64,000 nucleotides of DNA. Source: Chrysomallon squamiferum. Taxonomy: Eukaryota; Animalia; Mollusca. The notes beneath the pieces were generated by a model. It worked only from the letters and a program-made list of their open reading frames with translations. It ran no database searches and was not told the DNA's origin. Positions 19,657-43,800 of this stretch are shown here, piece by piece. A program made the translations under genes and the position numbers. The stretch is taken from the NCBI GenBank assembly GCA_012295275.1, contig CM022671.1, positions 10,664,001-10,728,000 on the forward strand. Reading direction: 5' to 3'. Each line of letters opens with the position of its first letter. Position 1 is the stretch's first letter.

Positions 19657-19712
<56 letters not shown>

Positions 19713-19762
19713 CAAACAAACAAACAAACAAACAAACAAACAAATAAATAAATAAATAAAAT
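19657..19762 (+). repeat. Compound (AAT)n(AAAC)n(AAAT)n microsatellite (mirror at about 36527-36640)
   Basis: Seen directly. Confidence 0.97.
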
Positions 19763-20414: not shown

Positions 20415-20454
20415 ATGACTACAAGAGCTAAGACCGCCTGTGAATTTATTCCAG
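20415..20454 (+). CDS. CDC14: CDC14 exon 1 ([13 protein letters not shown])
   Basis: ATG in a CpG-rich region; the ACEF motif is typical of the CDC14 N-terminus; donor CAG|gtaaat, phase 1. Confidence 0.85.
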
Positions 20455-21103
20455 GTAAATTTCGATCAATATTGACTATCACTGAATCGATCTCATTTAC
20501 ATCATTTTAAAGCGTTGCCAAGACTAAGGCGTCAAAGTTAAGTATTAAAATAAAAAAAATTCACACGATCATACTCATTGCCCCATTTTTTTATTCTTTA
20601 AAAAAACATAACAACCCCCACCCCCCAAAAAAAAGTAATAAAGAAATAATGGATAATCCTCTTGGCAACGTAGCTTTTACTAACTTTTATTATTATTACT
20701 TTTTCAATACTGCTAGTGATAAAACTGTGAATAATTGTTTTCTACGATAACACAGCCAGCCATACTCCTGTTGTAACCGGTGTTTATGCAAAAACGGTTC
20801 TATGCAATCCAAACAAATCTAGTGAGCCACGTCGATCTATTTTTCGGAAAAAGTATATGTATCTTTATTTATTTATTTTTGTATTATAAACAAAACGTAT
20901 GCAAATTAAAAGTTACATATTTTTCCAAAAATAGATCGGTGTCGTTCACTAGACTTGTTTTCAGTAACATTTTTGTTTTGCATGTAGTACATGATGTACA
21001 CCGCTAATCGCGACAGCACAGCTAGCTGCCTCTGTTATCGTTGGCGTAATTGGTCGACTTGTCGAGTTGGACAAGAAAAAACCAGTTTTTACAGTTATAA
21101 ATG

Positions 21104-21135
<32 letters not shown>

Positions 21136-24100
21136 ATTTAAATTAATTTAATTTTTAAAGAATTACTTAACCTTAATAACGACAGTAAATTATTATTTGT
21201 GTTTATGTCGGTTTGGTCCGCGTTTTTAAGGTAAGGTAAATGCTAGTGTTTTATATAAATTTATAATGTTGAGTAAAAATATACATCCGACTTTTCATAG
21301 ATTCGTTGACTCATTGTTTTCAGAGTAAGTGCTGTTTGCCAGAAAGTGTAACAGGCGACTAAACTATTAATAATGTCAGTGCTGACTGGATGATTGTGTG
21401 TTCTTTGTTAAGCATTATTAAATATGTTTTTTCAAACCATTTATGACAGCCATGGAAGTAAACCGATGCCATCTCAGATCATTGTTTTCACAGAGGTTGT
21501 AATCAGTCATACTAAATATCTGACCTTGTTGACTTCTCTACATACATGTACTAACGATTCTAGGAAAATAAGTCACAAATATTTAATTAAGAAAAATATT
21601 AGAAATGAAAGATTGATTAAACACATTTTGTCAGAGGTCTTCGATTTTAATGTTAATGGTGTAGGCAGATACCAATACCACAAAGAAATTCTGCCAATTG
21701 CAACTAGATCTTTTGACGTATTTCAACCACTACTTTGTTTTGCGAGTTGCATGTTTGGTATATAACAGATTTTGTTATCACCCTTTTGCTATGAATAACT
21801 TCCATATTAAAAATACTTCTGATAGTAGAGCAGTCTGGAGACTATAGAGTGAAACACATTTTAACCTGGGATATTTTATAAATCATTTACAATAGGAAGC
21901 CCTCAATTTAAATATATCCTAATCCTGCCTGATCCTAATTAATAAGTGTAACAAGTCACTACCCTTGCACAATATGAAGCCCCTTTCTTTAATCTAACCT
22001 AATCAATAAGCTTAACAATTACTCCATGCATACTATGATGCCACATTCAATACACTACAAATCCATACATTTTGTGACTTTTTCCTGTGATTTGTTTTCA
22101 TGTAGATACTAAATTGTGACTTCATTCTGTGACTTTTTTCCAGCCACTGTATTAAGAAAGAAAACACTAACTGACAATTATTTCAATTATAGGAATGGCA
22201 AAAAAAAAAAAAAAAAAAAAAAAAATAATAATAATAATAACAATAATGAAAACTGAAAGTCTGATAAATAAACATGCTTTTGAAGACTAAGGTTGGTAGC
22301 AAAGATTTTAAATCAGTCACAGACAGGAAAAAAAAAAAAAATTCCTCCACAACTAATTTAAAGTCTTCTTTCCCCTTCTTTAAATAAGATTGAAAATAAG
22401 TTGAATGACAATAAATTGTTTTACAAATTATTTAATAAAAAATCTACATTCTGATACATTAAAGGTCCATTACTTTTGTGTTCACTCTTATGATTAGTTG
22501 TATTTAAAAAACAGAATTTTTGAACATGTACTGTAAAAATAGTTTAATAACTTATAATTACTACATACTTTGTATCAAATTATGTGCAGTGCCTTTTCCT
22601 TTTCTTTTTTTAAATCTTTTTTCAGAGTCTGGGTAGAGAAACAATATAAGATATAACTTATATTTTACAGGACATTTGTATTTTGTAAGCTTAAAGAGGA
22701 AGCCAAAGCCAACCTCTGAGATTTATTATTTTTCAACAGATAATGAGTACATATATGATAAGTAAGTATAAATTTATGATCTGATTCAATAATGTAGAGT
22801 GTTTTCTCTCTGTATAGTGCAGGTTATTGTTTAGAAGTAGAAACTGATCATTTAAAGGATTTGAAGATGGAATTTTAAAAAGTTCATTTCATTGTCAGAT
22901 AAAGTCTTAATTATAATATTTAAAAGCTTGGTATCATAATTGTATATCATAAAGCCAGATAATATTTATTTCAACATTTGTTTCAGGCAAATTTTAAATT
23001 GATGTGTCGAATTGAAATTTATTTGTTTTTACATTTTTTTAAATTTGTTACTGACTAATTTAGAATTTTGATCTATTGTTAAAAATAGACTGTCATTTAT
23101 TAATTAAAAATAAAGATTATTGTCCGTAAATAAACACAGCGAATATATCGAGACTAATTGTTAGGATGGGAAACCAAAAAGACATGATAAGCTTTTCTTG
23201 TACGGTTTGCCAAAAATCTGACAGATCTTTAGAAAATCTGACTCAAATGCAATTTTCTTCAGGATCACACATTATATAATATTTCTACAATTACATCCAA
23301 AAACTGATGATGAAATTAATTAAATATTTGAAATAGAAGCATGTTCTGTGTATAGAATATTTGCACAACAAAGGTTTTTTTCAAAGGATTAGATTAATGA
23401 TCAGTATGTAAAATTCTGTGTTTAAACAAGATTTGATCCCAAATTTACTAATAATGATTTACCACCTTTTGTATTTGAATTGTTTGCATATTATTATTAT
23501 TTCATTACTTTGTTTCAGGATCAACTCAGACTTTGGGCCTCTGAATTTAGGACATGTTTACCGATTTTGTGAACGGATGCAGGAATTATTGTCTGTAAGA
23601 ATTTACTGAATTGAGAACAAACCAAGATAATCACATGATCTTTACTCAGAATTACAAATCTTTACACACTCTTTGAGTGGATCAGTGCTGATAATTTGTT
23701 GCTTCCATGCAGACTGGGTTTATACCAACTGTAATAGGCTTTTGTAATGGAAATTTTTAATAAAGTTCAGCATCATAAATTAACTTTGAGGAAAGAATAT
23801 GAATAACTTTTCTCTCAGTTTTCAGTTTTGAAGTAAATTTAAACCTTAATTATGTACACGTTACTTTACTACTTGTATACTCCTTGTTTTTCATAATGAA
23901 AAAAATGTATAGCTTTAAATGTTAAAAATAATTCTATATTGCCATTAGAAATAACAGAGTTTTATTGACATAGAGATAATTTGCTATCATTCAAAAATTA
24001 AAGTTTTTTTTGTATTTCTGTTAACGCTGTAAATGATTACTACTTTAGAGGGAAATATACATTTATATTTAGGATGTTTTAAAAATGTAAAATAAAAATA

Positions 24101-24620
24101 ATTTAATAATCACAACACTTAATAGTTCATTTTTTTGTTTTCAGTGTTTGTCATTGGCAAACAAAAAAATTGTATATTACACCAGATATAATGCAAAAAA
24201 ACGTGCCAATGCAGCCTTCTTGATTGGCTGTTATGCTGTAAGTATATATCTAGTTTGAACTAAGATACTGTTAATAATGTAAATTGTATTCAGATATACG
24301 TTTGATACAAATGCAAACCTTATGACAATTCAATCATAATTTATGAATGGAAAAATGTAATGAATGTAATGCAGATTTTGACTGATATTTAAATAAAGAG
24401 GGAAAAAAAGAGTCGCCATTTCCTGAGCTTAAATTAAAACCTTTTATGTTGAATATTTTCCATTTTCAGACTCTATATTTGAATAAAACACCAGAAGAAG
24501 CCTACGACATGCTTGTTGCAGCAGCAGATCAGCCATTCCGGCCATTCAGGTAAGACATACTTTGTCGATCAATCGTTTATATATTCATATACTTATCTTG
24601 GATTTTAGTGTATACGTTTG

Positions 24621-24672
<52 letters not shown>

Positions 24673-27600
24673 CTGTTTACAAGTTACATTGATCACTTGT
24701 AAATGCTAATTACTTTTCTTCATAATTGTTTTCAAACATGATGTGACCTTGATAGGATGTAATGTAACTGACACAGAAACTGCCAAAGCTGAATTACTAG
24801 CTCAATATTGATTTCCTGTATTGAGCTGTCTTAATAAATAGTGAACTTTTTCATTCAAACAATTATGTAATTATATTTGCAAATTAAATTAATAACTGCA
24901 CTGATGATATGCATGTCATTTATATTTACCCAATATTTTGTTATTATTATATATTTTTGGAACTACATAAATTAGAATGCACATGTACATTAATTTCATT
25001 GAGGGGAAAGTTTATTGCTTTCTAAAGTCACTTTTGTTTTTCTTCTTCATGGTACGTTCTTCAAAACACTCGATTATAACTGTTGTCCGCCTTGACTTTC
25101 ATAAAAAGTTCAGTGTGGTTGTACACTGACTCGGGCTTATTTTCTTATTCTGTGTCTTGTAGTTACAAAACAAAATGGTTGGGTGATTTAAAATCAAGCT
25201 TTTCTGTTTGTGTGGCTTTCTTATTATAATTTAAAAAATTTTAAATAACAAAAATCAAATAATTCCACTTGATTGAAAACAAAGCTGTGCTTAACATATG
25301 TATTCAACATTATCATAACTTTTAATATAACTGCCATAAAATCAAACAAAATGTATTTTTTTCCCCCACATTTAACATTGTTTCAGTAAAAGTAACTGTG
25401 TTTTTAGAATAAACAACCCCAGCAAACATCTGACTAAAACAGTAGACAAAATAATTGTATTATTGATACTTTCCATCTCTGGATTTCAAAAGGTCATAAA
25501 AAGTTTCTGTACATAGATCTTGAAAAAAAGAATAGCTGTGAAGAATTAAAAACTATGCAGTAATGTAACCAGTATTATAATTTTATTTTATTATTTTCCA
25601 GGGATGCTGCATTTGGAGGTTGCTCGTATTTTCTTACCTTGCTGGATTGCTTCAAAGCAATTAAAAAAGTAAATGTTACACCTGAAAATACCTCGTTATA
25701 ACAGACTTAAATTTTATTATGAAATAAATTGGCATATCTTTTTTTTAAATCTATTATCTCACCAGAATTTAATTTTGTTTAAAATTATCAGTTAAATAGA
25801 ATATAAAAAAAAATAAAACTCAAATCAATTAAAAACTGTTGTGATAAAGTTGTGTGATAGTACATTGATTTAAACTTACACTGGATAACTATTTGACTAA
25901 ATAGGTTCTGCAAGTTTTAGTGCAGATATTTTTCTTAAACACTAATAAATTACAACAGAGAAGTGAAGTGTTTTGCAGTATGGAAAATTATGGGTTTTAT
26001 TTTTGTAGTGATAAAACTTCTTGAACGCTAGAAGTGAGTTTCTTAATTGTTTTTGTATGTGTGTTGTTGTTATTGTTATTGTTATTATTATTATTGTTGT
26101 TATTGTTGTTATTATTATTATTATTATTATATTGCTAGGCACAGGACAATGGATTTTTCGATTTCCGTAACTTCAACATCTCGAAGTACGAATTTTACGA
26201 TGTACGTATCCATAAAAAATATAACTTATTGAATCTATTTCAGTCTAAACAATTATACTTTAATAAGTAATATCAGTGATGTATTTTTTTACAAGTCAAA
26301 AGATTGAGTTAAAGATGTAAATATTTAACATTCTGGTAACATCGTGTAGATAATATTTAAGTAAACTCTTGTTACTCAGTGTAATATTAATAGTTGATGG
26401 GAGAGAGAGGAAACATGTTGCTACCACCCAGTGAGCAACCATTATCACTACAACAATCTTTAAAAGTAAATAGCCCAAAACAGTGAGGGACAGAGCCATT
26501 TTATTAAATATATGCACTTTACATATTATTTTAAGATTAAGAAGAAAAACCACATAGATCCATAAAACATTCTGAGCAAACACTCACCTTTTTTATATAT
26601 TTTTGTTTATTTTCAGCATGTTAGATCATTTATATAATATGTAATGGGGTAAAAAATAAAGTATCTTATTCTTAGACATTAAAGAACATTGTAAATAACA
26701 TTCCTTGGTGAATTTAGGCTTTTAAAGCCCTATATCTGGAAATGTATTTTCTATGGGATTAAACTGGATGTAAAACATCAGTCCTATATATAATTAGACT
26801 CTTTTTGTTTTTTACAGAAAGTTGACAATGGAGATTTGCATTGGGTGATCCCAAACAAGTTTTTAGCCTTTTCTGGGCCTCGTCGTACAACAGAAGTCGA
26901 CAAAAATGGTATGAAATAATAAGGCATAATTTAAAGTTCCAACATCATAGTTCATGTTCATATTTCTAATACTAACATCATTGCGTGTTATTTTTGTTTT
27001 GTGAAATGCCAGCCAGAAATATTTATTTATTTGTTTATTTTGTCAAACAATTTAGTATTGTTAAAAAAATTAGAAATTAATTTAAATTTATTTTTGACAA
27101 GTGAAGAATAATGCAGCCATCAAAGAAAACTTACACCTGTGAAAACAATGTCTCTCTGCAAACATCAGTCAAAACACAGATATACATATAAATTCATGCC
27201 AGTCTATTAGTTTTTGTTTTCTAAGTTGATTGTTGAAATATTTACTAGTTAAATTTCAAATGCTTAGTTTTCTTTTAATTTTTGTTGATGTTGGTTTTGA
27301 AATTTTTGCTTCTATCAACTTAAAATAATTTGTTCCTTTGTTGTATTGTTTGAGACTTTTAAAATTGTGTTGAAATCATTACTTCTACATTAGTTCTTTT
27401 TCTTCCTTTTTATTAATTATGTGTCAAATATTCATTAAAAATCTTTTCTAATTTCTTAGTATTTTAATGCAGTAATTATTATTTCTGTGTATCAAAAACA
27501 ACACATGAATAATTTAGATGAATGTATTTAAACTAAAATTACAGTAAATTAAAAGTGATAGTGTTAGAAAACAGTTTTTGATCTAATTTGATTTATAACT

Positions 27601-29803
27601 ATTTCCGAGATAGCAAATAAATAATCTTTTTCTGGCATGTGCTTGACAAAACAAGAAGGTTTAAATTTCTTATTGAGTTCTCTACACAAGCAGATTAATT
27701 GGTGCTCAAGCAATCGGCTCTGATTAAACTGCTGGTGTATGTTTTTTCTATCCACAACCAAATGAACTTTGCGTAAAATTGGTTTTGATTTTTGGAATAC
27801 ACATTTATGCCATTATTTCCTATTTTAATATTTTTGTCTCATATTTAAGTTGTGCTCACTTAAGAATTTCAGTTAACAGAAACTAATTAATTTTAAACTA
27901 TGGCATACTTGTAAGTGATTCCAGGGAAATTCACTCTAGTTTTATACAGTTTTTATTTTGGTTGGTGGTGTATATTTTCAGTTTCAGAAATATCTGCCTT
28001 AAGATTGTGCATTTCCTTTGAGAAGAATACTTTTGTAGTAAATATTTTGTACATTTGCATTCTCCATGTTTGTTTTAACATTATTATTCACTACAAAGTA
28101 TGCGAAATTATTTTTCTTTTAGGGGATCCAGAACATCAGCTTTTCAACCAGAAAATATTAAAATAATTAGTAAATAATGAACATTCACCAATTATCAAAG
28201 ATACCTATTTAATGTCATTGTTTTGTGTCAAAAAGTAAATAACAGTAACAAGTTTCTATTGAATCACTCCAGACTGCCATTGAGATGACACTTAACATGA
28301 ACGCTTCTAAGACAGAGAATGCAATTTAACTTGGGAGACCAAAGATATTTCTTACCATTGTCACTAATTTTTCATGTATTCTGTTTGGCCCTGCAGTGAG
28401 TAGAAAATGAAGATCACAACTGGATTGTACCCAACAAATTTCTACCTTACAGTGGACCACGTCCAAAGAGCAACCTACAGTATGGTATGACTGAGAAATC
28501 TTTCACTTCAAAGCAAGCTTACTCACTTTGTGTGGCATGCCTTTCCATATTTATTAACAGTGTTCTGTATCCATGATTGATGCATCTTGAAAGAGAGAAA
28601 GAAAAACAAACTAATTTTTGTTTTAACACTTGCTTGTAGCTGCTAAGAACACTTTCTTCTTGTCTTATTTTCACATCCAAGTTTTTTCTTCTTTCTTCAA
28701 GTTTATAAATGCACTTCCATTTTGTTGGTTTTTTGTTTGTTTGTTTTATTCATTTACTTACAAGCTGTTGTTTGTTCATATTGAAATATAACAGCATGTG
28801 TCAGGTTATAAGAATGTTTATTAATTTAATAGTGCACTGAAATACTTCATTTATTCTATTTTTTTGTAGATTCTGAGTGATCGCTAAAACATCATATTTT
28901 TATATTTACAATCATCACAAATTAAAATATTCAAAATGTTCTTTCTCAGTTCACTATAACATTTTAAAAATTGTTCTGAAAGATGCATTCCAGAGAAAAG
29001 TTGATAGAACGATACTTAGGAAAATTGTTACAGTCAGTCATAAGTGGATGACTTAGTGAGTCATTTAACTGAATAACCCACATACAGAAAAACAAAAAAT
29101 AAAAAATAAACTTTGTTATGAACACTTTGAAAAAATTGGTTAGTTTAATTGGTTTTGAAATGCAAACTGTACTCTAAAATGTCACGGAATTCTTAAATTA
29201 GTCTGCTTTCATTGAAGGGAAATAACTCATGAATAGTGATACAATGGGAAATTAAGAAACATTTTGAGCTATTAATTTAAATTGAATAAAATCTTTAAAA
29301 TGACTTTTTTTTTTTTGCTTCAATATTTGCTATATGTGATTACTGTAAGTAGAGTGTATGAATAATCATTTTATCATCTTTTCAGGAACATTGTCATTTT
29401 CACCTGGAGACTATGTGCCCATTTTACAAAATCATAACGTATCTAAAATCATTCGACTAAATCGGAAGATGTATGATGCCAGCATCTTTAAAAGTGCTGG
29501 ATTTGAATTTTACGACCTATTCTTTGAAGACGGCAGCGTGCCGAGCGATGAAATCATCCAGAGGTTTCTGCACATATCAGAATGCCCCGGTCCCGCGATT
29601 GCAGTGCACTGCAAAGGTATAGCTTTGATATTTTCTCAGACTGGTTGAGGAATGTTTAAAACTTAAATGCTGATATTTGTTTACTAAGTAAATATTTAAA
29701 TTCATTTTCAGCGGGACTGGGGCGGACTGGCACCCTAATATGCTGCTACATGATGAAACACCATAAATTCACTGCCGCTGAAGCAATAGCAACTGGGTGG
29801 TAA
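20415..29803 (+). CDS. CDC14: CDC14 dual-specificity phosphatase, 10 exons, 3'-truncated at inversion junction (predicted 307 aa)
   Basis: GT-AG exons with consistent phases: 20415-20454, 22671-22761, 23519-23594, 24145-24237, 24470-24549, 25602-25668, 26139-26201, 26818-26908, 29386-29616, 29712-29803. The translation includes [119 protein letters not shown], then arm-derived TGW*. Confidence 0.95.
21440..22147 (-). mobile_element. Degenerate MULE/Mutator-like transposon remnant in CDC14 intron 1 (mirror at about 34114-34815)
   Basis: Frameshifted minus-strand motifs WYLP, TYF and NNDL(R)WHRF resemble MULE transposase LAYLP, YF and TNNDLEGWH. The terminal region has repeated gtgacttttt/aaaaagtcac subrepeats at 22068-22147. 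Confidence 0.45.
22671..22761 (+). CDS. CDC14: CDC14 exon 2 ([30 protein letters not shown])
   Basis: tttacag acceptor, gtaagt donor; LYF and YFS.D.E..Y motifs. Confidence 0.92.
23519..23594 (+). CDS. CDC14: CDC14 exon 3 ([25 protein letters not shown])
   Basis: DFGPLN motif; tttcag and gtaaga boundaries. Confidence 0.95.
24145..24237 (+). CDS. CDC14: CDC14 exon 4 ([31 protein letters not shown])
   Basis: [10 protein letters not shown] motif; tttcag and gtaagt boundaries. Confidence 0.95.
24470..24549 (+). CDS. CDC14: CDC14 exon 5 ([27 protein letters not shown])
   Basis: YL.KTPEEAY motif; tttcag and gtaaga boundaries. Confidence 0.95.
25602..25668 (+). CDS. CDC14: CDC14 exon 6 ([22 protein letters not shown])
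   Basis: DA.FG...LT.LDC motif; ttccag and gtaaat boundaries. Confidence 0.95.
26139..26201 (+). CDS. CDC14: CDC14 exon 7 ([21 protein letters not shown])
   Basis: GFFDF..F....YE.Y motif; 63 nt, phase 0-0. Confidence 0.92.
26818..26908 (+). CDS. CDC14: CDC14 exon 8a ([30 protein letters not shown])
   Basis: [13 protein letters not shown] motif; tttacag and gtatga boundaries; 91 nt. Confidence 0.95.
28397..28484 (+). pseudogene. CDC14: Second copy of CDC14 exon 8 (8b): [28 protein letters not shown]
   Basis: ctgcag acceptor and G|gtatga donor; 88 nt with the same 0-1 phase as exon 8a; clear homology to the CDC14 [22 protein letters not shown] segment; first codon is TGA. Confidence 0.85.
29386..29616 (+). 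CDS. CDC14: CDC14 exon 9 (catalytic domain, ...[34 protein letters not shown])
   Basis: Lies within ORF 29358..29648; contains the general-acid loop and VHCK. Confidence 0.97.
29712..29803 (+). CDS. CDC14: CDC14 exon 10, truncated ([30 protein letters not shown])
   Basis: Completes the CX5R P-loop; homology stops at 29791, where the inverted arm begins. Confidence 0.92.
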
Positions 29804-30016
29804 ACATGTTTACTCTCTCTCCATCAACTATTAATATTACACTGAGTAACAAGAGTTTACTTAAATATTATCTACACATGTTACCAGAATGTTAAATATT
29901 TACATCTTTAACTCAATCTTTTGACTTGTAAAAATACATCACTGATATTACTTATTAAAGTATAATTGTTTAGACTGAAATAGATTCAATAAGTTATATT
30001 TTTTATGGATACGTAC

Positions 30017-31566
30017 ATCGTAAAATTCTGTACTTCGAGATGTTGAAGTTACGGAAATCGAAAAATCCATTGTCCTGTGCCTAGCAATATAATAATAATA
30101 ATAATAATAACAACAATAACAACAATAATAATAATAATAACAAACAATAACAACAACACACATACAAAAACAATTAAGAAACTCACTTCTAGCGTTCAAG
30201 AAGTTTTATCACTACAAAAATAAAACCCATAATTTTCCATACTGCAAAACACTTCACTTCTCTGTTGTAATTTATTAGTGTTTAAGAAAAATATCTGCAC
30301 TAAAACTTGCAGAACCTATTTAGTCAAATAGTTATCCAGTGTAAGTTTAAATCAATGTACTATCACACAACTTTATCACAACAGTTTTTAATTGATTTGA
30401 GTTTTATTTTTTTTTATATTCTATTTAACTGATAATTTTAAACAAAATTAAATTCTGGTGAGATAATAGATTTAAAAAAAAGATATGCCAATTTATTTCA
30501 TAATAAAATTTAAGTCTGTTATAACGAGGTATTTTCAGGTGTAACATTTACTTTTTTAATTGCTTTGAAGCAATCCAGCAAGGTAAGAAAATACGAGCAA
30601 CCTCCAAATGCAGCATCCCTGGAAAATAATAAAATAAAATTATAATACTGGTTACATTACTGCATAGTTTTTAATTCTTCACAGCTATTCTTTTTTTCAA
30701 GATCTATGTACAGAAACTTTTTATGACCTTTTGAAATCCAGAGATGGAAAGTATCAATAATACAATTATTTTGTCTACTGTTTTAGTCAGATGTTTGCTG
30801 GGGGTTGTTTATTCTAAAAACACAGTTACTTTTACTGAAACAATGTTAAATGTGGGGGAAAAAAATACATTTTGTTTGATTTTATGGCAGTTATATTAAA
30901 AGTTATGATAATGTTGAATACATATGTTAAGCACAGCTTTGTTTTCAATCAAGTGGAATTATTTGATTTTTGTTATTTAAAATTTTTTAAATTATAATAA
31001 GAAAGCCACACAAACAGAAAAGCTTGATTTTAAATCACCCAACCATTTTGTTTTGTAACTACAAGACACAGAATAAGAAAATAAGCCTGAGTCAGTGTAC
31101 AACCACACTGAACTTTTTATGAAAGTCAAGGCGGACAACAGTTATAATCGAGTGTTTTGAAGAACGTACCATGAAGAAGAAAAACAAAAGTGACTTTAGA
31201 AAGCAATAAACTTTCCCCTCAATGAAATTAATGTACATGTGCATTCTAATTTATGTAGTTCCAAAAATATATAATAATAACAAAATATTGGGTAAATATA
31301 AATGACATGCATATCATCAGTGCAGTTATTAATTTAATTTGCAAATATAATTACATAATTGTTTGAATGAAAAAGTTCACTATTTATTAAGACAGCTCAA
31401 TACAGGAAATCAATATTGAGCTAGTAATTCAGCTTTGGCAGTTTCTGTGTCAGTTACATTACATCCTATCCAGGTCACATCATGTTTGAAAACAATTATG
31501 AAGAAAAGTAATTAGCATTTACAAGTGATCAATGTAACTTGTAAACAGGTTATTATTATTATTATG

Positions 31567-31609
<43 letters not shown>

Positions 31610-33888
31610 CAAACGTATACACTGAAATCCAAGATAAGTATATGAATATATAAACGATTGATCGACAAAGTATGTCTTACCTGAATGGCCGGAATGGCTG
31701 ATCTGCTGCTGCAACAAGCATGTCGTAGGCTTCTTCTGGTGTTTTATTCAAATATAGAGTCTGAAAATGGAAAATATTCAACATAAAAGGTTTTAATTTA
31801 AGCTCAGGAAATGGCGACTCTTTTTTTTCCTCTTTATTTAAATATCAGTCAAAATCTGCATTACATTCATTACATTTTTCCATTCATAAATTATGATTGA
31901 ATTGTCATAAGGTTTGCATTTGTATCAAACGTATATCTGAATACAATTTACATTATTAACAGTATCTTAGTTCAAACTAGATATATACTTACAGCATAAC
32001 AGCCAATCAAGAAGGCTGCATTGGCACGTTTTTTTGCATTATATCTGGTGTAATATACAATTTTTTTGTTTGCCAATGACAAACACTGAAAACAAAAAAA
32101 TGAACTATTAAGTGTTGTGATTATTAAATTATTTTTATTTTACATTTTTAAAACATCCTAAATATAAATGTATATTTCCCTCTAAAGTAGTAATCATTTA
32201 CAGCGTTAACAGAAATACAAAAAAAACTTTAATTTTTGAATGATAGCAAATTATCTCTATGTCAATAAAACTCTGTTATTTCTAATGGCAATATAGAATT
32301 ATTTTTAACATTTAAAGCTATACATTTTTTTCATTATGAAAAACAAGGAGTATACAAGTAGTAAAGTAACGTGTACATAATTAAGGTCTTAATTTACTTC
32401 AAAACTGAAAACTAAGAGAAAAGTTATTCATATTCTTCTTCATAAAGTTAATTTATGAAGCTGAATTTTAGTAAAAATTTCCTTTACAAAAGCCTATTAC
32501 AGTTGGTATAAACCCAGTCTGCATGGAAGCAACAAATTATCAGCACTGATCCACTCAAAGAGTGTGTAAAGATTTGTAATTCTGAGTAAAGATCATGTGA
32601 TTATCTTGGTTTGTTCTCAATTCAGTAAATTCTTACAGACATTAAGCCTTGCATCCGTTCACAAAATCGATAAACATGTCCTAAATTCAGAGGCCCAAAG
32701 TCTGAGTTGATCCTGAAACAAAGTAATGAAATAATAATAATATGCAAACAATTCAAATACAAAAGGTGGTAAATCATTATTAGTAAATTTGGGATCAAAT
32801 CTTGTTTAAACACAGAATTTTACATACTGATCATTAATCTAATCCTTTGAAAAAAACCTTTGTTATGCAAATATTCTATACACAGAACATGCTTCTATTT
32901 CAAATATTTAATTAATTTCATCATCAGTTTATGGATGTAATTGTAGAAACATTATAAAATGTGTGATCCTGAAGAAAATTGCATTTGAGTCAGATTTTCT
33001 AAAGATCTGTCAGATTTTGGGCAAACCGTACAAGAAAAGCTTATCATGTCTTTTTGGTTTCCCATCCTAACAATTAGTCTCGATATATTCGCTGTGTTTA
33101 TTTACGGACAATAATCTTTATTTTTAATTAATAAATGACAGTCTATTTTTAACAATAGATCAAAATTCTAAATTAGTCAGTAAGAAATTTAAAAAAATAT
33201 AAAAACAAATAAATTTCAATTCGAAACACCAATTTAAAATTTGCCTGAAACAAATGTTGAAATAAATATTATCTGGCTTTATGATATACAATTATGATAC
33301 CAAGCTTTTAAATACTATAATTAAGACTTTATCTGACAATGAAATGAACTTTTTAAAATTCCATTTTCAAATCCTTTAAATGATCAGTTTCTACTTCTAA
33401 ACAATAACCTGCACTATACAGAGAGAAAACACTCTACATTATTGAATCAGATCATAAATTTATACTTACTTATCATATATGTACTCATTATCTGTTGAAA
33501 AATAATAAATGTTAGAGGTTGGCTTTGGCTTCCTCTTTAAGCTTACAAAATACAAATGTCCTGTAAAATATAAATTATATCTTATATTGTTTCTCTACCC
33601 AGACTCTGAAAAAAGATTTAAAAAAAAGAAAAGGAAAAGGCACTGCACATAATTTGATACAAAGTATGTAGTAATTCTAAGTTATTAAACTATTTTTACA
33701 GTACATGTTCAAAAATTCTGTTTTTTAAATACAACTAATCATAAGAGTGAACACAAAAGTAATGGACCTTTAATGTATCAGAATGTAGATTTTTTATTAA
33801 ATAATTTGTAAAACAATTTATTGTCATTCAACTTATTTTCAATCTTATTTAAAGAAGGGGAAAGAACACTTTAAATTAGTTGTGGAGG

Positions 33889-33919
<31 letters not shown>

Positions 33920-34018
33920 CCCGTCTGTGACTGATTTAAAATCTTTGGTACCAAACTTAGTCTTCAAAAGCATGTTCAGACTTTCAATTTTCATTATTGT
34001 TATTATTATTATTATTTT

Positions 34019-34061
<43 letters not shown>

Positions 34062-35137
34062 CATTTCTATAATTGAAATAATTGTCAGTTAGTGTTTTCT
34101 TTCTTAATACAGTGGCTGGAAAAAAGTCACAGAATGAAGTCACAATTTAGTATCTACATGAAAACAAATCACACGAAAAAGTCACAAAATGTATGGATTT
34201 GTAGAGTATTGAAAGTGGCATCATAGTATGCATGGAGTAATTGTTAAGCTTATTGATTAGGTTAGATTAAAGAAAGGGGCTTCATATTGTGCAAGGGTAT
34301 TGACTTGTTACACTTATTAATTAGGATCAGGCAGGATTAGGATATATTTAAACTGAGGGCTTCCTATTGTAAATGATTTATAAAATATCCCAGGTTAAAA
34401 TGTGTTTCACTCTATAGTCTCCAGACTGTTCTACTATCAGAAGTATTTTTAATATGGAAGTTATTCATAGCAAATGGGTGATAACAAAATCTGTTATGAG
34501 GGGTTTATATATACCAAACATGCAACTTGCAAAACAAAGTAGTGGTTTAAATACGTCAAAAGATCTAGTTGCAATTGGCAGAATTTCTTTGTGGTATTGG
34601 TATCTGCCTACACCATTAATATCAAAATCGAAGACCTGTGACAAAATGTGTTTAATCAATCTTTCATTTCTAATATTTTTCTTAATTAAATATTTGTGAC
34701 TTATTTTCCTACAATCGTTAGTACATGTATATAGAGAAGTCAACAAGGTCAGATATTTAGTATGACTGATTACAACCTCTGTGAAAACAATGATCTGAGA
34801 TGGCATCGGTTTACTTCCATGGCTGTCATAAATGGTTTGAAAAAACATATTTAATAATGCTTAACAAAGAACACACAATCATCCAGTCAGCACTGACATT
34901 ATTAATAGTTTAGTCGCCTGTCACACTTTCTGGGAAACAGCACTTACTCTGAAAACAATGAGTCAACGAAACAATGAAAAGTTGGATGTATATTTTTACT
35001 CAACATTATAAATTTATAAAAAACACTAGCATTTACCTTACCTTAAAAACGCGGACCAAACCGACATAAACACAAATAATAATTTACTGTCGTTATTAAG
35101 GTTAGGTCATTCTTTAAAAATTAAATTAAATTAAAAT

Positions 35138-35175
<38 letters not shown>

Positions 35176-35862
35176 TTTATAACTGTAAAAACTGTTTTTT
35201 TCTTGTCCAACTCGACAAGTCGACCAATTACGCCAACGATAACAGAGGCAGCTAGCTGTGCTGTCGCGATTAGCGGTGTACATCATGTACTACATGCAAA
35301 ACAAAAATGTTACTGAAAACAAGTCTAGTGAACGGCACCGATCTATTTTGGGAAAAATATGTAACTTTTAATTTGCATACGTTTTGTTTATAATACAAAA
35401 ATAAATAAATAAAGATACATATACTTTTTCCGAAAAATAGATCGACGTGGCTCACTAGATTTGTTTGGATTGCATAGAACCGTTTTTGCATAAACACCGG
35501 TTATAACAGGAGTATGGCTGGCTGTGTTATCGTAGAAAACAATTATTCACAGTTTTATCACTAGCAGTATTGAAAAAGTAATAATAATAAAAGTTAGTAA
35601 AAGCTACGTTGCCAAGAGGATTATCCATTATTTCTTTATTACTTTTTTTTGGGGGGTGGGGGTTGTTATGTTTTTTTAAAGAATAAAAAAATGGGGCAAT
35701 GAGTATGATCGTGTGAATTTTTTTTTTTTTAATACTTAACTTTGACGCCTTAGTCTTGGCAACGCTTTAAAATGATGTAAATGAGATCGATTCAGTGATA
35801 GTCAATATTGATCGAAATTTACCTGGAATAAATTCACAGGCGGTCTTAGCTCTTGTAGTCAT
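30017..35862 (-). pseudogene. CDC14: Inverted partial CDC14 copy (exons 1-7 only, +1 frameshift in exon 7, no catalytic domain)
   Basis: Exons 35823-35862, 33470-33560, 32637-32712, 31993-32085, 31681-31760, 30552-30618 and 30017-30080 (64 nt against 63 nt in the left copy). Confidence 0.9.
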
Positions 35863-36110
35863 TACGACTTTGTCAATACAGCGAAGCTGCGATTTCTATG
35901 GTCCGTTTTGCTACGCAGGTATGCTTATTTATTGTCCAGCTTACTGAAGTCTTAAACCTGGAACCTTAGCAGCAGGAATCAACAGGAATCAACGAATTAT
36001 AAATTACTTTAGCTGTAGTAATAATAATGCTTTCCGCTTATAAATATTGTGAAATATACGTAAAACTGTTTTGGCATCTAGTTTAATCAGATAGAAATGA
36101 TAAACACTTA

Positions 36111-36199
36111 CACGTGACTAGCATTCAACCAATCGCTTACAAGAGCCGTCGCCGGGGACAAATTCTGGATTGACCAATCAACTGTTTGGCGGGGAAAAT
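36111..36199 (-). promoter_or_regulatory. Mirror copy of candidate CDC14 promoter
   Basis: cacgtg, two ccaat and tttggcggggaaaa are present as the reverse complement of the left copy. Confidence 0.5.
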
Positions 36200-36586
36200 T
36201 GAATAGAAACATGCAAAAGAATATAAAATAAGGTTTCGATTTTAAAGGCTGTAAACTAATTTTAAAGATAATAAACTAAATTTAATTTTCTTTACCTGGT
36301 AAATAAACAGATTAGGGTTGGGCTAAATATAATTATATTAATTCTATGTGACTTCACACAGTACACAGTGTATTAACAAAATATGTTAATAATAACAACA
36401 GTAGTAGTAGTAGCAGTAATTACTTTCAAAACATTTTGACCCAATACACAAGAAAATTTAAACCTATACCATTATAGAAATATGCATTTGTTTGTATTGT
36501 TTTTATTTTTATTTAATTTACTTATTTTATTTATTTATTTATTTGTTTGTTTGTTTGTTTGTTTGTTTGTTTGTTTGTTTTATTTG

Positions 36587-36643
<57 letters not shown>

Positions 36644-37616
36644 TAGATTGCAGCAGCTCATTAAACTAATTTCATTTAGAACAGATCTAGTTACGTGTAC
36701 ACCTGTCAGATCAGTGTCAGAATCTGAAAAGCTAGTTGATCTGACATATTTGTGAAGCAAGCTGTTAGCAGTAAAACAAAATATTGTAGCACAGTTCTTA
36801 CGGTAGTTTCACTACTTTCCAGTATTTGTTGGTACGCACTTAGTTCTGCAAGGAAACCCAAGACAAACGAAAGGTGAGCGTTTGAGCGCTAAATTCTGAG
36901 TATTATTATATTATCATTATATACTCTCTCTTCAGTCTAGCGGTTGAAATGAAAGTATATTAAATATTTTTGCATATCTTGATCACCTGAGAAAACTTTG
37001 TTATTGGTCATATCTTCTATTTGAATATTAATACATTTCATTCGCGTAAAAAAAAAATGAATAATAAAAAAGGTAAACACAATAATTTGAATAAATGAAT
37101 AATAATAAATACATAAAATGATAAATAAATAATTAACTTTAGTGACTTGCACAGAAACTATTAAAATTGATTAACTGATTAAATTATCTCCAACAGCCTC
37201 AAAACTAAATTTTAAACATTCTGATGTCAAGGTCACAGTAAATTAGAAATAATTTTATAATACAAGTGGTTTATTATCAGCGTTAATAATTGAGTTCGGA
37301 GGTGTATCCGACAAGAATGTCATTGCTTGCCGTTTGTACTGGATGTTATCTTATTATTTATTTAAGGAAAAGAATATACTGATCAACCAGAAACTGAAAT
37401 AAGTTTAGGTAGTTAATTAATAGAGATCTTTATTAAAATTAAATGATAAATCAGCAAGTTATGATGAAGTATATATGCAGGTGTGGATGGGAATGTGTAT
37501 ATATTTATGTAATATATAAATGCATGCACATATACGTATAGTCTATCAAACAGATTATATATATATAGTCTCTATTTTTGTGAAATCAATGTATTTTTCT
37601 TTTTTCTTTTCTTTTA

Positions 37617-37663
<47 letters not shown>

Positions 37664-37684
37664 ATATATATATCTATATATATA

Positions 37685-37719
<35 letters not shown>

Positions 37720-39578
37720 TTATGTTATGTCTATCCATCTGCCTATTCAGTATTTATCAGTATTGAACTGTGATTATTAAAATGTAAAAAAAATCAATAA
37801 TACATATACATATATTTGAGACCAGATATATAGGCTTATTTATAAAATAACATTCTTAAAGGGTTTCAATTGTGTTTAAGCCTAATGAAGTACATTTGTT
37901 GTTATTTTTGTACAAGTCAAACCTCTTCATTTCATTAATGTTTATTTACGATATATTAAACTGACAAAACTAATAATGAACAAGCAAGGCACAGAGTTAT
38001 AAAATGTTTTTATAATGCGCTATGTATTTTTGACAGAGTAACCTAAAACAAAACCAAAAAGTCATTTAATTATGATTTAACCCTGCAAAAAATGTAAAAA
38101 AAAATAAATAATAAATAACATTTTATAATTTTTATTCTTATTGTATATATTAGGTGCCATAACTGTACTCAGTTATGTAGTATAAAAAAAATTAATTAAT
38201 AAAATTTCAGCACCATTTTAAAAAGTGAATGTCTGAAGGCCAATATTTAATTAATACAATAAATATGTACAAACATGTTTTCATCATATTTATTCACTTT
38301 GATTCAACAATGTCATACAGAGAACATAATATAAACAAATTTATAGTTACTAAACATGAATGTTATTTGTCTTCCTTTTATCTATTTTAATAAATTAATT
38401 AATGCATATGGAATATCTTCTTTTCAATTATGCTTGATAGTTCATTTGTTTTAGAATTATCAAATAAGGCTACACCATAACAGTTGGGAAGGAAATTACA
38501 GTTTTTAAATTGTATTTAATTATATATAGTGACAGGAAATAGATTAAGCTCTAGAACAAAAAGGTACTTTTACTGTTAGACCAAGAATGGAAGCCAAGTT
38601 AAAAAAATAAATAAAATATTAACAATTGTAGCCAGGCCTCTCTTGCTAGTAAAAGCTTTGCCACATTTTGAAATGAGTAATTTTTTCCAAATTAAACAAA
38701 GATAAAACAAACTAACTATGCTGGATTAAACATAGATATATATGAAAAACAGCTTCTCTGAAGAATAATCAATTATCCATTACTTTTGTGATTATATTAA
38801 TAAATCACAAGCTTGAGATTAAACAAGTTTTTATTTCAGGTAACATACTGTTATTAAAATAATAAACAAAATAATTAAAATTATTCTTTTAAGCCCTGCA
38901 ACATAGTTATTGTGCAAAAATGTACATACTGGAAATGCTGTTTATATGAACATATTGAAGGTTTCTTTGATGTGAATATAATATGTTTAAAATCATGTGT
39001 AATATTTTACTAAAACAAATATTCAACTTCAGTAATTTTGAATTTGAATAACAGAAACAAAAGTTACTCTTAAGCATTTGAAGGATTCAGTATTGGCACA
39101 TCCAAATAAATATTCAAGAAATGTGATGATGTCACATTTGTTAGACAAATGGTATTCAGACATTCCATAGTTACTGAACATGTTATTTACAATTTTAATT
39201 TATCTATAATTTATAGGACTACCTTTATAAATACTACTTGAATCGTAGTAAAACTAAAAGATGCATTGTGATTTGGACTCTGGATGTTTATACTTTCTTT
39301 TATTTTTGAATACACGTTTATACATAAACACATAGAAACACTCATGTATACATTGCATTGCTTTAATCAAATGGTTTATAATGTATTGGTTTAATGAAAA
39401 GAAAATTGTTTTAGCTGATTTCCATTTAATTTCTGCGAATTTGCAAAGTTTTCATCTCTTATTATGTCTTAAATATTTTCCAGACAACTAGAAACTATTT
39501 AAAATTAAGATAGCAATTTCAGAAATAATAAAAATTGTGTACACAATGAAATGAAATACATTACAAAATAATAATTGC

Positions 39579-40885
39579 CTCAAAAATGTGTTAGTATGAG
39601 CATCAGGATTCCAGTAAGCTCCAAACAGAAATCCAGCGACAGTTTTTACAAACATCTTAGAACCATGCCGACTTATTGCTGGACCAAATGCTAAACTTGA
39701 AGGCAGAGATGTTCGAGTAGTACAAGATGATGAGGAGAACTGATCATCATGAACATCATGATAACCAGTGAATAAGTAAGAACCATCCTCTGTGGAACAT
39801 AATGAAAAACAAATATATATACACACACACAAACACATTATTATTATTATATAAATGCTGTAATAAAAATTATGCCTTTAAAAAAGAAACAGCTAGTGAT
39901 GCCATCAAAACTTGGGTGGACAGAATGACGGATAAGATCAGTTAACTTGTCATTGAAAATGCAAGGAATATTCTACCAAATCAAGCCTTGTCATATATTA
40001 ATTTTGGATTTTTATATTTTATTCTCATTTTATTTATTTTATTTCTTTATTTATTTTCGTTATACGTTTTTTCCTGTCTTCTGGAAGGTACATCTTTCGG
40101 CTGTCATTTCTTATTTAATTTTATTGGATTTGATTACACACATAACTAACCTTTTATATTTTATTACAGAACTTAAAGTTATATGAACACCAAATTTTGC
40201 TAATAATGTAAGTATGTGAAATCATCATTGAAAATAAAATTTGAGTCATTCTTGTACTCCCAAATCAGCAGTTTTTCAGAAAACTTCATTTTAGTTACAA
40301 ACTTGTTCAGGAGTACAAACAAAAGGTTAATAAATCTGTAAAAGGTGACATACTTACTTGAAATACGACAGCTTATGTAGTATTCTTCTCTGTCAATAAC
40401 AGCATTCCAAATCACACTTCTGTTTTGTTTACCAATTACAACTGTTGAACCTGGTGCCTTTAGTCTGTCCAAATTAGGAATAATAGTTTTATATGATCCA
40501 TCAATGGATTTAAAGAAGCTGTTATCCAAATCCACACCCGCATTACCTTTAAAATAAAACATCTTAAACTATTGCTAAATTCTGAGGATATTTTTAAAAA
40601 ATGAAATGAAATAAACATGCAAAAATAAATGTAACTATGTAAATATATGCTTAACAACTATTAGTGTTCAGTAGGTGTCAAATATATTTTCTGTTACCAA
40701 ATCAGAAATATTACCAATGTGATAATATTGGTTGTCAACTCCACTTTGTGTTAGCTCCTCTGAAAATTGGTTATATTCTTCAGATGTAAAAAATGTAGTC
40801 AAATGACCTCCTTGAATAAGACACTGAGCCTGTCCCTTTTCAAAAGTGAACTTTTCTTTATACACTCTAAAGTAAACTGAATAAT
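39579..40885 (-). CDS. C-type lectin-like + F5/8 type C-like gene fragment, right copy open across three exons
   Basis: Exons 40715-40885, 40358-40546 (DREEYYISC, with GAA where the left copy has TAA) and 39579-39789. I identified no start exon; the last donor is non-canonical (GC). Confidence 0.6.
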
Positions 40886-43800
40886 CTGCAAAAGAAACAG
40901 AAACAACCTGTTCTTACATGCAAAAATAAACATTCATTCATGTGCTTATATTAACCTTTCAAGAATTTTTAAAAAATTATCAAACAATATATTCTCCATT
41001 TCTACAAATAACTTTTGGTGCCATAAATAATTTCACATTATAATCAATTTAAAAATATTTTACAGATAAAAATGATTATTAACGATAAATAAAAAAATGT
41101 TATAACATATTTGCATTAACCTTTTATACACTTAAATCCATCACGCCACAATCTAGATCCTTTGAAACAAGTGCAGACTGCAATTTCATTTTTCATTGTG
41201 CATTGATGCTTATATTATTTATCACTTTATCACTAATATCATTAACATCTTCAAATAGTCAAATAGAGAGTGACAGCAGTGTTTAAATAAAACTAATTTA
41301 AAATAATAACAAAATAAATAAATAAAATTGTGATGTTAAAAATGAATAAATATAAACTAATACATCAAAATCTGAAACACAAATGACAGAATGAAAACAT
41401 TTGATGCAGGTTCTTTTATATGATCCATCAATGGATTTAAAGAAGCTGTTATCCAAATCCACACCCGCATAACCTTTAAAATAAAACATCTTAAATTATT
41501 TTTTAATTCTGAGGTATTTTTTAAAAATGAAATGAAATAAACATGTAAAAATAAATGTTTCATGTTATTTTGATTTGATTTTCCATACACTTGATATCAA
41601 TATCTAATTTGGGTTGTTTTCATAGATTGTCTAATATTTGTTAACAGTATCAGGATGTGTTTGTTGGATTGTGTATACGTTGAATAATTATCTGTCACTT
41701 TGTTGTATTATCTACACACTTGTTTACAGCACATGATTCATGTTCTTCTCTTTGAATACACTGGATAACACAATCTGATGAGGTTGTTTTGTCAGACGCA
41801 ATATCTGTTTTAGTTTGTTTTACATGATTATATACACTTGACAGCAATGTGTGATTTTGGTGTTCATAGATCAATTACAAACTGTACAACTATCTAATCT
41901 GGATAGTTTTTAGATAATCCACAATACTTATAACAGTATGTAATTTAGATTGATTGTTTTGCTGGAATATCTAGATACTAGATAACAGTTTCTGATTCAG
42001 ATTAATATCATAGATTATTTACAAAATGGATGATAATACCTGCTTTAGCTTTTTTTGTTGTTTTATCTGCAACTTTACTAAGAATATCTAATTCAGGTCA
42101 TTTTCTTGGATTATCTTCAAATGATAACATTGGTTTCATGTTCTTTTCTTAGATTATCTATAAACTGTTCAACAGTATATAATTTAAATTGTTTATATGT
42201 TTTCTTAAATGATCTACATGTCATAATAGTATCTTCTAATCAGGTTGTTTTGATGATTTATCACACTTCAAAGCAATGTCTGTGTGAACTGACTTTCTCT
42301 TGATTAGACTGTACATCAGTAACTGATTCAGGTTCGCACACTGGACATTATTTTGTTTCGTTGGATATTCTCCACATCATACAAAATATCTAACTTGGGT
42401 TACTTTGCTAGTTCATAGCAATGTTTGATTTAGGCTGATGTTTCTGACATTATGTATAAATTTGATTTAGGCAGCTTTCATCAGTTATCTACAAACTGTT
42501 TAGCAATACCTAATTTTAGGTGATTTTTCTCAGACATTCCACTCAAGATGTAGCAGGTGATTATTTTGTTATCTGTACACAACATAACAGAATCAGATTC
42601 AGACTGTTGTCAGATTATCTTCAAAACAAATACAAAAAAAACCCAAAAACTGAAATCCATCAAAGATCCATATTGTATGAAGAGTCTTTCAAAGAAGACA
42701 ATAATTTATAATTAACAGCAATATATTTTTTTAATGGATGAAATATGGTAACTTTAAATGATTATTCTACATGTATTTAGATGAAACAGCCCTGATTACT
42801 GAAGAAAAAATGCAGAAAAAAGTAAACACTCCAGATTTATAGAACCTCTTTAACAGAACATTTATCCATCTTTTTTCCTTTCTTGTTAATGGACATGAAA
42901 ATGTCTAGCAATATATTCATGATTCTCTTTCTAAATAAATTGGTCTAAGAGAAATAACTTTTACATTCAAATATCACTAATGGGAGAAGTATCTATATAA
43001 TGCACAAGTTAATAAAGAAAAAATGATAAAAATAATAAGAATAAACTAAAAACAACAACAACAACAATAATCAAACAAATGCTAAGTAATAATAGTGATA
43101 AATGAAATCTTTACCGTTAGATGTTGTGTTTACATTTATTATTTTTAAAATTAAGAGAATATTTTGATAGCCTATGTTTTTTTTCTTTTCATTTCATGAT
43201 TTAAGTTGTAAAATAATATGATCTGAAATAATTTAAATATATGATCTATTAGTGTTAATGCATCAGATTTGGGCTATTTGAAAATAACATTTTAACTTTT
43301 GTAAAATACTTTTATTTCTTCTTTTAATAGATTGATTGATTATTCTTTGATTGTAAATTCCTTCCTAAATGTATATTCAAACAAATGTTATTCATTTCTT
43401 CTATGATATCTGTCAATATGACTTGAAGATCATCCCAGTACCAGTCATCAATAGAATAATCAAGTTTGTTGAACATTGATTCATGTTTCATTCATTACAT
43501 TTCATGCAATATCATTTATGAATCCCAGAAATTGTTTTAACAACAGACTGATCCAAGGGTATGACTGTTGTCAAGATTGTCAGTCCTCTTAAAATATTTT
43601 ATGTATAGACGTCAGTGTTTTAGGTGTTTCTTTACTTAACTGACTTTAATGCCAGCATATATTCTTTCACGAAACAATGAAACTATTTCAATTGATGTGT
43701 CAAATCATAAACACATCAAAAACCATTTGTATTTGTTATTTATAAAATTACACACTGTAAGCTGAAAATTAATTTGTGCACATAACTATACTAATAACAA

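What the first reader, a model, noticed from the sequence alone, without database searches (positions are those of the whole stretch)
28397..28484. Hidden second CDC14 exon 8 with splice sites intact and a TGA first codon: mutually exclusive or poison exon
Seen: intron 8 holds an 88-nt exon homologous to exon 8a (91 nt), with the same phases and the same gtatga donor. The two are strongly diverged from each other, so the duplication is much older than the palindrome. Including both would frameshift, which is the layout of mutually exclusive exons. Exon 8b is closer to the canonical CDC14 segment ([25 protein letters not shown] in human CDC14A, from memory), yet it carries TGA (one transition from CGA-Arg), G>E and A>P. 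Inference: an ancestral 8a/8b switch in which this gene copy disabled the canonical exon, or an NMD poison exon. Speculatively, A-to-I editing could change UGA to UGG and GAA to GGA.
Basis: partly seen in the sequence, partly recalled or inferred. Interest (0 to 1): 0.8.

Follow-up and report, generated by a model that had tools for sequence, protein, structure and literature searches.

The report
Snail CDC14 swap-exon turned off-switch
Many snails and bivalves make two versions of the cell-cycle phosphatase CDC14 by swapping one exon; in a fast-evolving extra copy of the gene in what is probably a snail, the second exon now starts with a stop codon yet is still spliced into RNA, so it likely works as an off-switch that would send the message for destruction.

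Summary
Exon 8b (28397-28484, 88 nt, AG/GT, first codon TGA) is real in DNA and unedited in RNA contigs.

Public isoforms show an either-or exon-8 pair (K-type and R-type, both 29 aa) in 10 of 16 mollusc groups and 0 of 5 other groups. I found no paper on this pair.

The window gene is a fast-evolved paralogue (57-58% identical to canonical CDC14A). Its 8a is coding. Its 8b comes from the R-type exon, has lost near-invariant residues and has a stop in both entry frames. It still matches the canonical gene's exon at 75/88 nt, against 30/61 for the adjacent coding exon ends. Several diverged copies keep a TGA-type 8b.

RNA joins 8b to exon 9 (2 of 2 runs). One run shows an 8a end joined to 8b. 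No exon 7-to-TGA-8b join was seen.

Best reading: an ancestral mutually exclusive exon turned into a poison exon, like SCN8A 18N or cockroach Nav G3. NMD itself was not tested. A relic kept similar by gene conversion remains possible. Editing rescue is not supported. The scan had not noted this on other DNA.

The parts
28397..28484 (+). Exon 8b: R-type CDC14 exon 8, now non-coding; TGA at 28397-28399 (frame after exon 7) and TGA at 28408-28410 (frame after exon 8a); candidate poison exon
28364..28396 (+). Branch-point-like CTAAT (28364-28368), pyrimidine tract and AG acceptor of 8b; start of the block that is identical between diverged copies
   Evidence: the branch-point role is inferred from the recalled consensus
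28485..28512 (+). Donor and downstream intron flank of 8b, alignable in diverged copies (to 28508-28512) and in organism B's canonical-type exon (to 28508)
   Evidence: records 1, 13, 15
26818..26908 (+). Exon 8a: coding exon, inferred descendant of the K-type exon, 91 nt; joined to exon 7 in RNA
   Evidence: (joint 26201-26818)
20415..26201 (+). Exons 1-7 of the diverged CDC14 paralogue (20415-20454, 22671-22761, 23519-23594, 24145-24237, 24470-24549, 25602-25668, 26139-26201); exon 4 matches Pfam DSPn
29386..29791 (+). Exon 9 (29386-29616) and the first 80 nt of exon 10 (29712-29791) with the intact catalytic HCKAGLGRTG motif; cut by the fold-back junction at 29791/29792
29792..43858 (-). 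Inner part of the right palindrome arm (inverted copy of 12424-26432, 97.7%); carries a second copy of exons 1-7 but not 8a or 8b

Best explanation
Exon 8b is the second member of an old mollusc either-or exon pair of CDC14 that, in this fast-evolving gene copy, has lost its coding role but is still spliced in, and it likely acts as a poison exon whose inclusion would trigger nonsense-mediated decay. Steps: (1, shown from public isoforms) canonical mollusc CDC14A uses a K-type or an R-type exon 8. (2, shown) a lineage-specific paralogue carries both; 8a gives an open frame through the catalytic motif; 8b stops translation after 170 aa if entered from exon 7 or after 204 aa if entered from 8a, before the catalytic site. 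(3, shown in contigs) TGA-type 8b is joined to exon 9. (4, inferred from a 9-letter loose end in one run) it is included together with 8a; in the other run it sits behind a retained intron. (5, inferred) selection keeps the branch point, exon and donor flank as DNA signals. (6, inferred, untested) these transcripts are degraded by NMD, so the inherited splicing switch now sets the amount of the paralogue instead of its sequence.
For: Both exon types occur in isoforms of 10 of 16 mollusc groups and 0 of 5 non-mollusc groups (at most 15 members listed per cluster). 8b matches the canonical mRNA's R-type exon at 75/88 nt, while the adjoining coding exon ends match at 30/61 (counted by eye loose ends; Fisher p=3e-6). 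At protein level 8b is 69% identical to the Gigantopelta R-type isoform, against 44-65% for exons 2-7, 8a and 9 and 88% for exon 10, although it has lost G, A and F that are 97-99% conserved. A copy with 19 differences in 164 nt of upstream intron has 0 in the next 97 nt, starting at the branch-point-like motif (chance of such a run 0.003). Diverged RNA records 13, 20 and 22 align from 28396/28397 and lack the canonical letters at 28410, 28445 and 28449, so TGA, G>E, A>P and F>Y appear shared by the family. 8b-to-9 joins appear in 2 of 2 spliced runs laid there (X6, X7), and a diverged paralogue uses both 8a-9 and 8b-9 (record 22). The stops lie 85 and 74 nt upstream of the 8b/9 junction. NMD enforces 14 of 19 non-3n exon clusters in C. 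elegans (PMC4165533, passages).
Against: No NMD test was possible. 8b-containing contigs are not rare (depth 51 in X7), which fits inefficient decay or nuclear retention. The 8a-8b joint rests on a two-record consensus in 1 of 2 runs; X6 shows none for this copy. Over the whole exon, the diverged copy's 8b is not significantly more conserved than its exon 9 (4/88 versus 21/230, p=0.24; pairing of those records is inferred), and the 97-nt block was defined after the fact. Some copies carry further substitutions and frameshifting indels in 8b (records 13, 20). The family seems amplified, so gene conversion could keep tracts alike without selection. No local RNA structure supports a fold-based switch (z=+1.44). 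Diverged copies seen in RNA were mostly not seen among the 8 DNA records laid from X3, so their status as paralogues of one genome is inferred.
Confidence: 0.58

Rival explanations
1. Dead relic. After duplication the paralogue needed only 8a; 8b died and is included only by leaky splicing. Its similarity across copies comes from gene conversion within an amplified array, or from one late conversion from the canonical gene.
For: Protein-level decay with dN/dS-like neutrality (4 synonymous, 9 other changes); indels in some copies; signs of amplification (main depth 14-29 times that of minor versions) and mosaic arm divergence, which fit conversion.
Against: The similarity is confined to the exon plus about 25-30 nt of flank and starts at the branch-point-like motif. 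It is also seen against another organism's canonical-type exon (record 1). Acceptor and donor are intact and used. The exon is far closer to the canonical gene than neighbouring coding exons are.
Confidence: 0.25
2. 8b is kept as a splicing element or makes a short product rather than acting through decay. It could be a decoy or detained-intron signal that paces 8a-9 splicing, or the 204-aa 8a+8b product (N-terminal domain without catalytic site) could be stable and act on the full-length enzyme.
For: In X6 the upstream intron is covered at depth 61 versus about 19 further upstream, and 8b runs on unbroken from that intron. 8b-containing contigs are abundant. The 8a+8b frame ends after 204 aa.
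Against: Several downstream junctions make it a standard NMD substrate (general knowledge). There is no peptide evidence. Contig depth is a poor measure of expression.
Confidence: 0.14
3. Still a coding either-or exon, rescued by A-to-I editing (UGA to UGG, GAA to GGA) or readthrough.
For: RNA shows A>G at 28405 and 28410.
Against: Those letters lie in records with 12 differences that join canonical exons 7 and 9, that is, another gene. Records with 0 differences keep TGA and GAA (X6 record 12, X7 records 18 and 21). Editing could not undo A>P, F>Y or L>H. No exon 7-to-TGA-8b join was seen. No stable fold.
Confidence: 0.02

Closest known systems
SCN8A (Nav1.6) exons 18A/18N and cockroach BgNav exons G1/G2/G3 (PMC3809569, PMC4309913; passages)
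   Same: A mutually exclusive exon set in which one member has an in-frame stop and gives a truncated, non-functional product, read as a fail-safe off-switch. In cockroach, coding G1 and G2 sit beside stop-bearing G3.
   Different: Here the stop-bearing exon is the direct counterpart of an exon that still codes in the parent gene of the same animal. The RNA points to inclusion with 8a or behind a retained intron rather than exclusive choice. Tissue regulation is not shown.
NMD-enforced mutually exclusive exons of non-3n length (C. elegans survey PMC4165533, passages; FGFR2 IIIb/IIIc cited there)
   Same: Both exons are 3n+1, the intervening intron is long (1488 nt), and double inclusion frameshifts.
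   Different: In this copy single inclusion of 8b is also unproductive, so only one coding isoform remains.
Duplicated exons 5a/5b retained across SCN-alpha paralogues (PMC12772994; abstract and section 5)
   Same: An exon duplication older than the gene duplications, with conserved intronic elements shared by paralogues.
   Different: Those exons are treated there as alternative coding exons or as lost, and the abstract says NMD is not the main factor.
Canonical mollusc CDC14A (for example Gigantopelta aegis isoforms X1/X3/X4 versus X2)
   Same: Two exon-8 types occur at the same position and with the same length; the exon read from RNA and organism B is of the X2 type.
   Different: The window gene is only 57-58% identical to canonical CDC14A proteins, its 8a has gained one codon, and its 8b cannot code.

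Membership tests
Homologous mutually exclusive exons (canonical mollusc CDC14A exon 8) | Isoforms carry one or the other homologous segment of equal length between the same flanking exons | tested here: met
   10 of 16 mollusc groups show both types, each listed protein with one segment; from protein models, genomes not inspected
Homologous mutually exclusive exons (window gene 8a/8b) | Both exons give in-frame protein | tested here: not met
   8b stops at codon 171; RNA unedited
Homologous mutually exclusive exons (window gene 8a/8b) | 7-8b-9 junctions present and 8a-8b junctions absent | tested here: not met
   No 7-to-TGA-8b join seen; an 8a-end-to-8b join inferred in X7. Tables were cut and contigs drop rare forms
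Poison (NMD-inducing) exon | Inclusion brings a premature stop more than 50 nt upstream of a downstream junction | tested here: met
   Stops 85 and 74 nt before the 8b/9 junction
Poison (NMD-inducing) exon | Exon is spliced into RNA | tested here: met
   8b-9 joins in X6 and X7
Poison (NMD-inducing) exon | Conserved as nucleotide sequence without protein constraint | tested here: inconclusive
   75/88 versus 30/61 (p=3e-6) and 0/97 versus 19/164 are in favour; 4/88 versus 21/230 (p=0.24) is not; conversion not excluded
Poison (NMD-inducing) exon | Included isoform rises when NMD is blocked, and inclusion is regulated | not testable with these tools
   Only assembled contigs of untreated samples were available
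CDC14 dual-specificity phosphatase | DSPn domain followed by a catalytic domain with the HCxxGxxR motif in one open frame | tested here: met
   Pfam DSPn hit on exon 4; 304 codons open with the motif via 8a; activity not tested
A-to-I recoding site | RNA shows G where DNA of the same gene has A | tested here: not met
   0-difference RNA records over 28397-28412; low-level editing cannot be excluded from contigs

The most novel reading that the evidence does not exclude
An isoform switch caught becoming an off-switch. The tissue programme that makes the parent CDC14A choose its R-type exon is reused unchanged to silence a young, amplified family of CDC14 paralogues in the same cells. Two separate point changes put a TGA in each frame by which the exon can be entered, and selection now preserves only the splice signals. 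Parent and daughter genes in one genome would give a direct before-and-after test of how poison exons arise from coding mutually exclusive exons.
Probability: 0.3. Interest if true: 0.72.

Novelty: new variant of a known kind. Interest (0 to 1): 0.52.

Why it matters
There are two results. First, a mutually exclusive exon pair in CDC14A is shared by gastropods and bivalves, and my paper searches did not find it described. Second, a derived gene copy has turned one member of that pair into a stop-bearing exon that is still spliced and still conserved as DNA. Stop-bearing partners of coding exons are known from sodium channels, but there the coding ancestor is not sitting in the same genome. Here the coding and the poisoned form of the same exon can be compared in one animal, which makes the origin of poison exons testable.

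Tried and rejected
No whole genome is held for this window, so paralogue loci could not be read.

Searches with exon 9 found no close relative of the derived gene. Best hits were 61% (24 candidates, weak), 65% among the 150 listed, and 54% (1 candidate). This is weak evidence that the family is lineage-specific.

A degenerate 27-letter scan of metagenome contigs gave one hit, a ciliate-type Cdc14 nanochromosome (L001), which is irrelevant.

I considered a second AG at 28402-28403, which would make an 81-nt in-frame cassette after 8a. No record begins or has a loose end at 28404, so it was dropped.

An internal promoter with 8b as first exon was dropped: the ATGs in 8b are out of frame with exon 9 (read from the sequence).

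I considered 8b as a late insert from the canonical gene. The ancestral pair makes this unnecessary, but a later conversion is not excluded.

Docking-site/selector pairing was not found: inverted repeats in 26200-29400 are AT-rich matches of 70-86%, and 28355-28545 folds worse than shuffles.

The upstream loose end of X6 record 13 first looked like a paralogue's 8a end, but it matches the intron flank about as well, so it is not counted.

I first read the palindrome as an assembly fold-back because DNA runs continue exon 10 at 29791. With a multi-copy gene this does not decide the matter.

X8 was laid only. Organism B (X10) gave one canonical-type record and no TGA-type record; a hole proves nothing.

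Pfam found nothing for 8 other ORF-like stretches, nor for 8a or 8b alone.

Paper searches found no description of the CDC14 pair: 20 papers, 18 listed, none on it by title or abstract start; 1, unrelated; 6, unrelated; 0; 0. Searches (0; 2 listed; 7 listed) gave no matching case. Subscription journals and supplements of genome papers were not searched and could list these exons.

Full report
Observation. The window holds a CDC14 gene on the + strand: exon 1 at 20415-20454, exons 2-7, 8a (26818-26908, 91 nt), 8b (28397-28484, 88 nt), 9 (29386-29616) and the first 80 nt of exon 10. All internal exons have AG acceptors and, except the cut exon 10, GT donors. The path through 8a is open for 304 codons and includes the catalytic motif. 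The path through 8b stops after 170 aa, 8a+8b after 204 aa, and skipping both after 194 aa. 8b matches 8a at 38 of the first 63 nt; 0 of 500 shuffles of the intron reach that. DNA contigs with no difference span the TGA in X1 and X3.

The gene. Against fetched CDC14 proteins the spliced product is at best 57-58% identical and sits on a long branch. Exon-9 searches found nothing closer than 65%. Earlier notes on this genome call it a snail. I checked this only in part: the canonical exon read from RNA and from organism B is of the type seen in Gigantopelta and Haliotis isoforms. A canonical CDC14 mRNA exists separately (X7 record 23, 2376 nt; X6 record 14), so the window gene is a derived paralogue. 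RNA shows several further diverged versions. Main DNA depth is 14-29 times that of minor versions, a hint of amplification; the tool warns that such depth is no copy number.

Ancestral switch. Cluster members of mollusc CDC14A fall into two exon-8 types of 29 aa between identical flanks: K-type (starts with K, Cys before GP) and R-type (starts with R, Ser before GP). Both types occur in Gigantopelta, Haliotis, Patella, oysters, scallops, Dreissena/Mya, venerids and Mytilus (8 of 11 groups), and in Physella and unionids (2 of 5). Only the K-type was listed for Pomacea, Babylonia, Littorina, chiton, Biomphalaria and sacoglossans. One type only was seen in amphioxus, sea urchin, turtle CDC14B, fish and mammal CDC14A (0 of 5 with two). 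At most 15 members per cluster were listed, and these are protein models, not genomes; 20 single proteins could not show pairs. 8b is R-type (20/29 versus 15/29 to the Gigantopelta isoforms). For 8a protein identity is a tie (15 versus 16 of 21). Its first and third residues match the Gigantopelta K-type, and its Leu and Ser codons are one step from Phe and Cys codons but two from the R-type codons (read), so descent from the K-type is an inference.

What 8b has become. It differs from the canonical RNA exon at 13 of 88 nt: 4 synonymous, 9 not. It has lost G, A and F that are 97-99% conserved in 68 CDC14 segments, which 8a keeps. Both entry frames meet TGA at once: 28397 after exon 7, and 28408 after 8a, the latter made by the G>E change. 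Yet as DNA it is conserved: 75/88 to the canonical exon against 30/61 for the adjoining ends of exons 7 and 9 (counted by eye; p=3e-6). One copy differs at 19 of 164 nt in the upstream intron and at 0 of the next 97 nt, a block that begins at a branch-point-like CTAAT (run probability 0.003). Records of more diverged versions align from 28396/28397 and share the inactivating letters; some add indels. Organism B's canonical-type exon aligns with about 23 nt of flank on each side (record 1). Against this reading: over the whole exon the contrast with exon 9 is not significant (4/88 versus 21/230, p=0.24), the block was picked after the fact, and conversion among copies could mimic constraint.

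RNA. X7 is labelled 'DNA?' but holds spliced contigs, so I treat it as RNA. Exon 7 joins 8a in X6 and X8. TGA-type 8b joins exon 9 in X7 (record 21, 0 differences in 8b, one letter different at the start of exon 9) and in X6 (loose end at 28485), and a diverged paralogue does so too (record 22). Upstream, the X7 loose-end consensus at 28396 ends in the last 9 letters of 8a followed by its final G, which indicates an 8a-8b join; the consensus merges two records, so which copy gives it is inferred. In X6 the 8b contig runs unbroken from the upstream intron, which is covered at depth 61 against about 19 further upstream. No exon 7-to-TGA-8b join was seen; 43 joints, 7 pieces and 1 loose end were not shown, and contigs drop rare forms. 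Editing is not seen: records with 0 differences cover 28397-28412, and the RNA A>G letters belong to the canonical mRNA.

Mechanism. In the parent gene two 3n+1 exons with room for the intron between them give two proteins, and double inclusion frameshifts. NMD polices 14 of 19 such clusters in C. elegans (PMC4165533, passages). In the paralogue any use of 8b is unproductive, so the inherited splicing choice can only lower the amount of active enzyme. Stop positions and splicing to exon 9 are shown. Co-inclusion with 8a, selection on the signals, decay by NMD and tissue regulation are inferred. I put this at 0.58, a converted relic at 0.25, a detention, decoy or short-protein role at 0.14, and editing at 0.02.

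Known relatives and novelty. SCN8A 18N and cockroach Nav G3 are stop-bearing members of mutually exclusive sets read as fail-safe switches (PMC3809569, PMC4309913; passages). SCN-alpha exon 5 pairs predate their gene duplications (PMC12772994; abstract and section 5). PMC7954323 does not mention CDC14 in its main text (find). So the kind is known. The CDC14 pair was not found, and a parent-and-daughter case was not found or 63 (listings only, apart from the papers named); subscription papers and supplements were not searched. Earlier scan notes hold nothing on this locus or a look-alike. Verdict: new variant of a known kind, interest 0.52.

Context. The gene lies across the centre of a palindrome of about 57 kb that cuts exon 10 at 29791. 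DNA runs X1 and X3 continue there with in-frame exon 10, so most copies are not cut. Whether the fold-back is one real rearranged copy or an assembly artefact is open. 8a and 8b lie in the unique spacer and do not depend on it.

Noticed in passing
window 1-57400, centre 26432/29792: Palindrome of about 57 kb. The junction cuts CDC14 exon 10 at 29791, while DNA runs X1 and X3 continue with intact exon 10 there. Real rearranged copy or fold-back artefact is unresolved.
   Followed up: partly
window 21000-24000 versus its inverted copy at about 32300-35300: Arm divergence is mosaic: 22-24 substitutions per kb at 21-24 kb but 0-9 per kb elsewhere in 12-27 kb, as if the arms come from different gene copies or were partly converted.
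   Followed up: partly
window 29995-30065 (minus strand): The minus-strand CDC14 copy has a 1-nt insertion in exon 7 and ends before exon 8, so it looks truncated.
   Followed up: partly
window 20900-29900: DNA depth of the main version is 14-29 times that of minor versions, and one exon-9 variant that dominates RNA in X6 and X8 is present in X3 but not listed in X1: a hint of an amplified, copy-number-variable family of diverged CDC14 genes.
   Followed up: partly
public proteins P0198/P0290, P0180/P0294, P0376/P0282, P0189/P0453, P0494/P0201 and others: The mollusc CDC14A exon-8 pair itself (Cys versus Ser before the GP motif) deserves study; only the K-type was listed for three caenogastropod groups, possibly a loss.
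   Followed up: partly
window 28200-28396: The intron just upstream of 8b is covered in X6 RNA at about three times the depth of intron further upstream, suggesting slow or detained splicing at the 8b acceptor.
   Followed up: partly
window 28535-28539 and 28363-28368: A GCATG motif 50 nt downstream of 8b and an ACTAAT motif at the branch point; these resemble Rbfox and QKI sites (labels recalled, not tested).
   Followed up: no
window 57670-60460: Degenerate tandem repeats with units of about 300-570 nt just beyond the palindrome end, with related copies near 53680-54160.
   Followed up: no
window 48774-49378: Short repeated ORF-like units in the right arm; no Pfam match.
   Followed up: partly
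L001 1-1964: A complete ciliate-type nanochromosome (C4A4/G4T4 ends, TAA/TAG in frame) encoding a Cdc14; chance hit of the pattern scan.
   Followed up: partly
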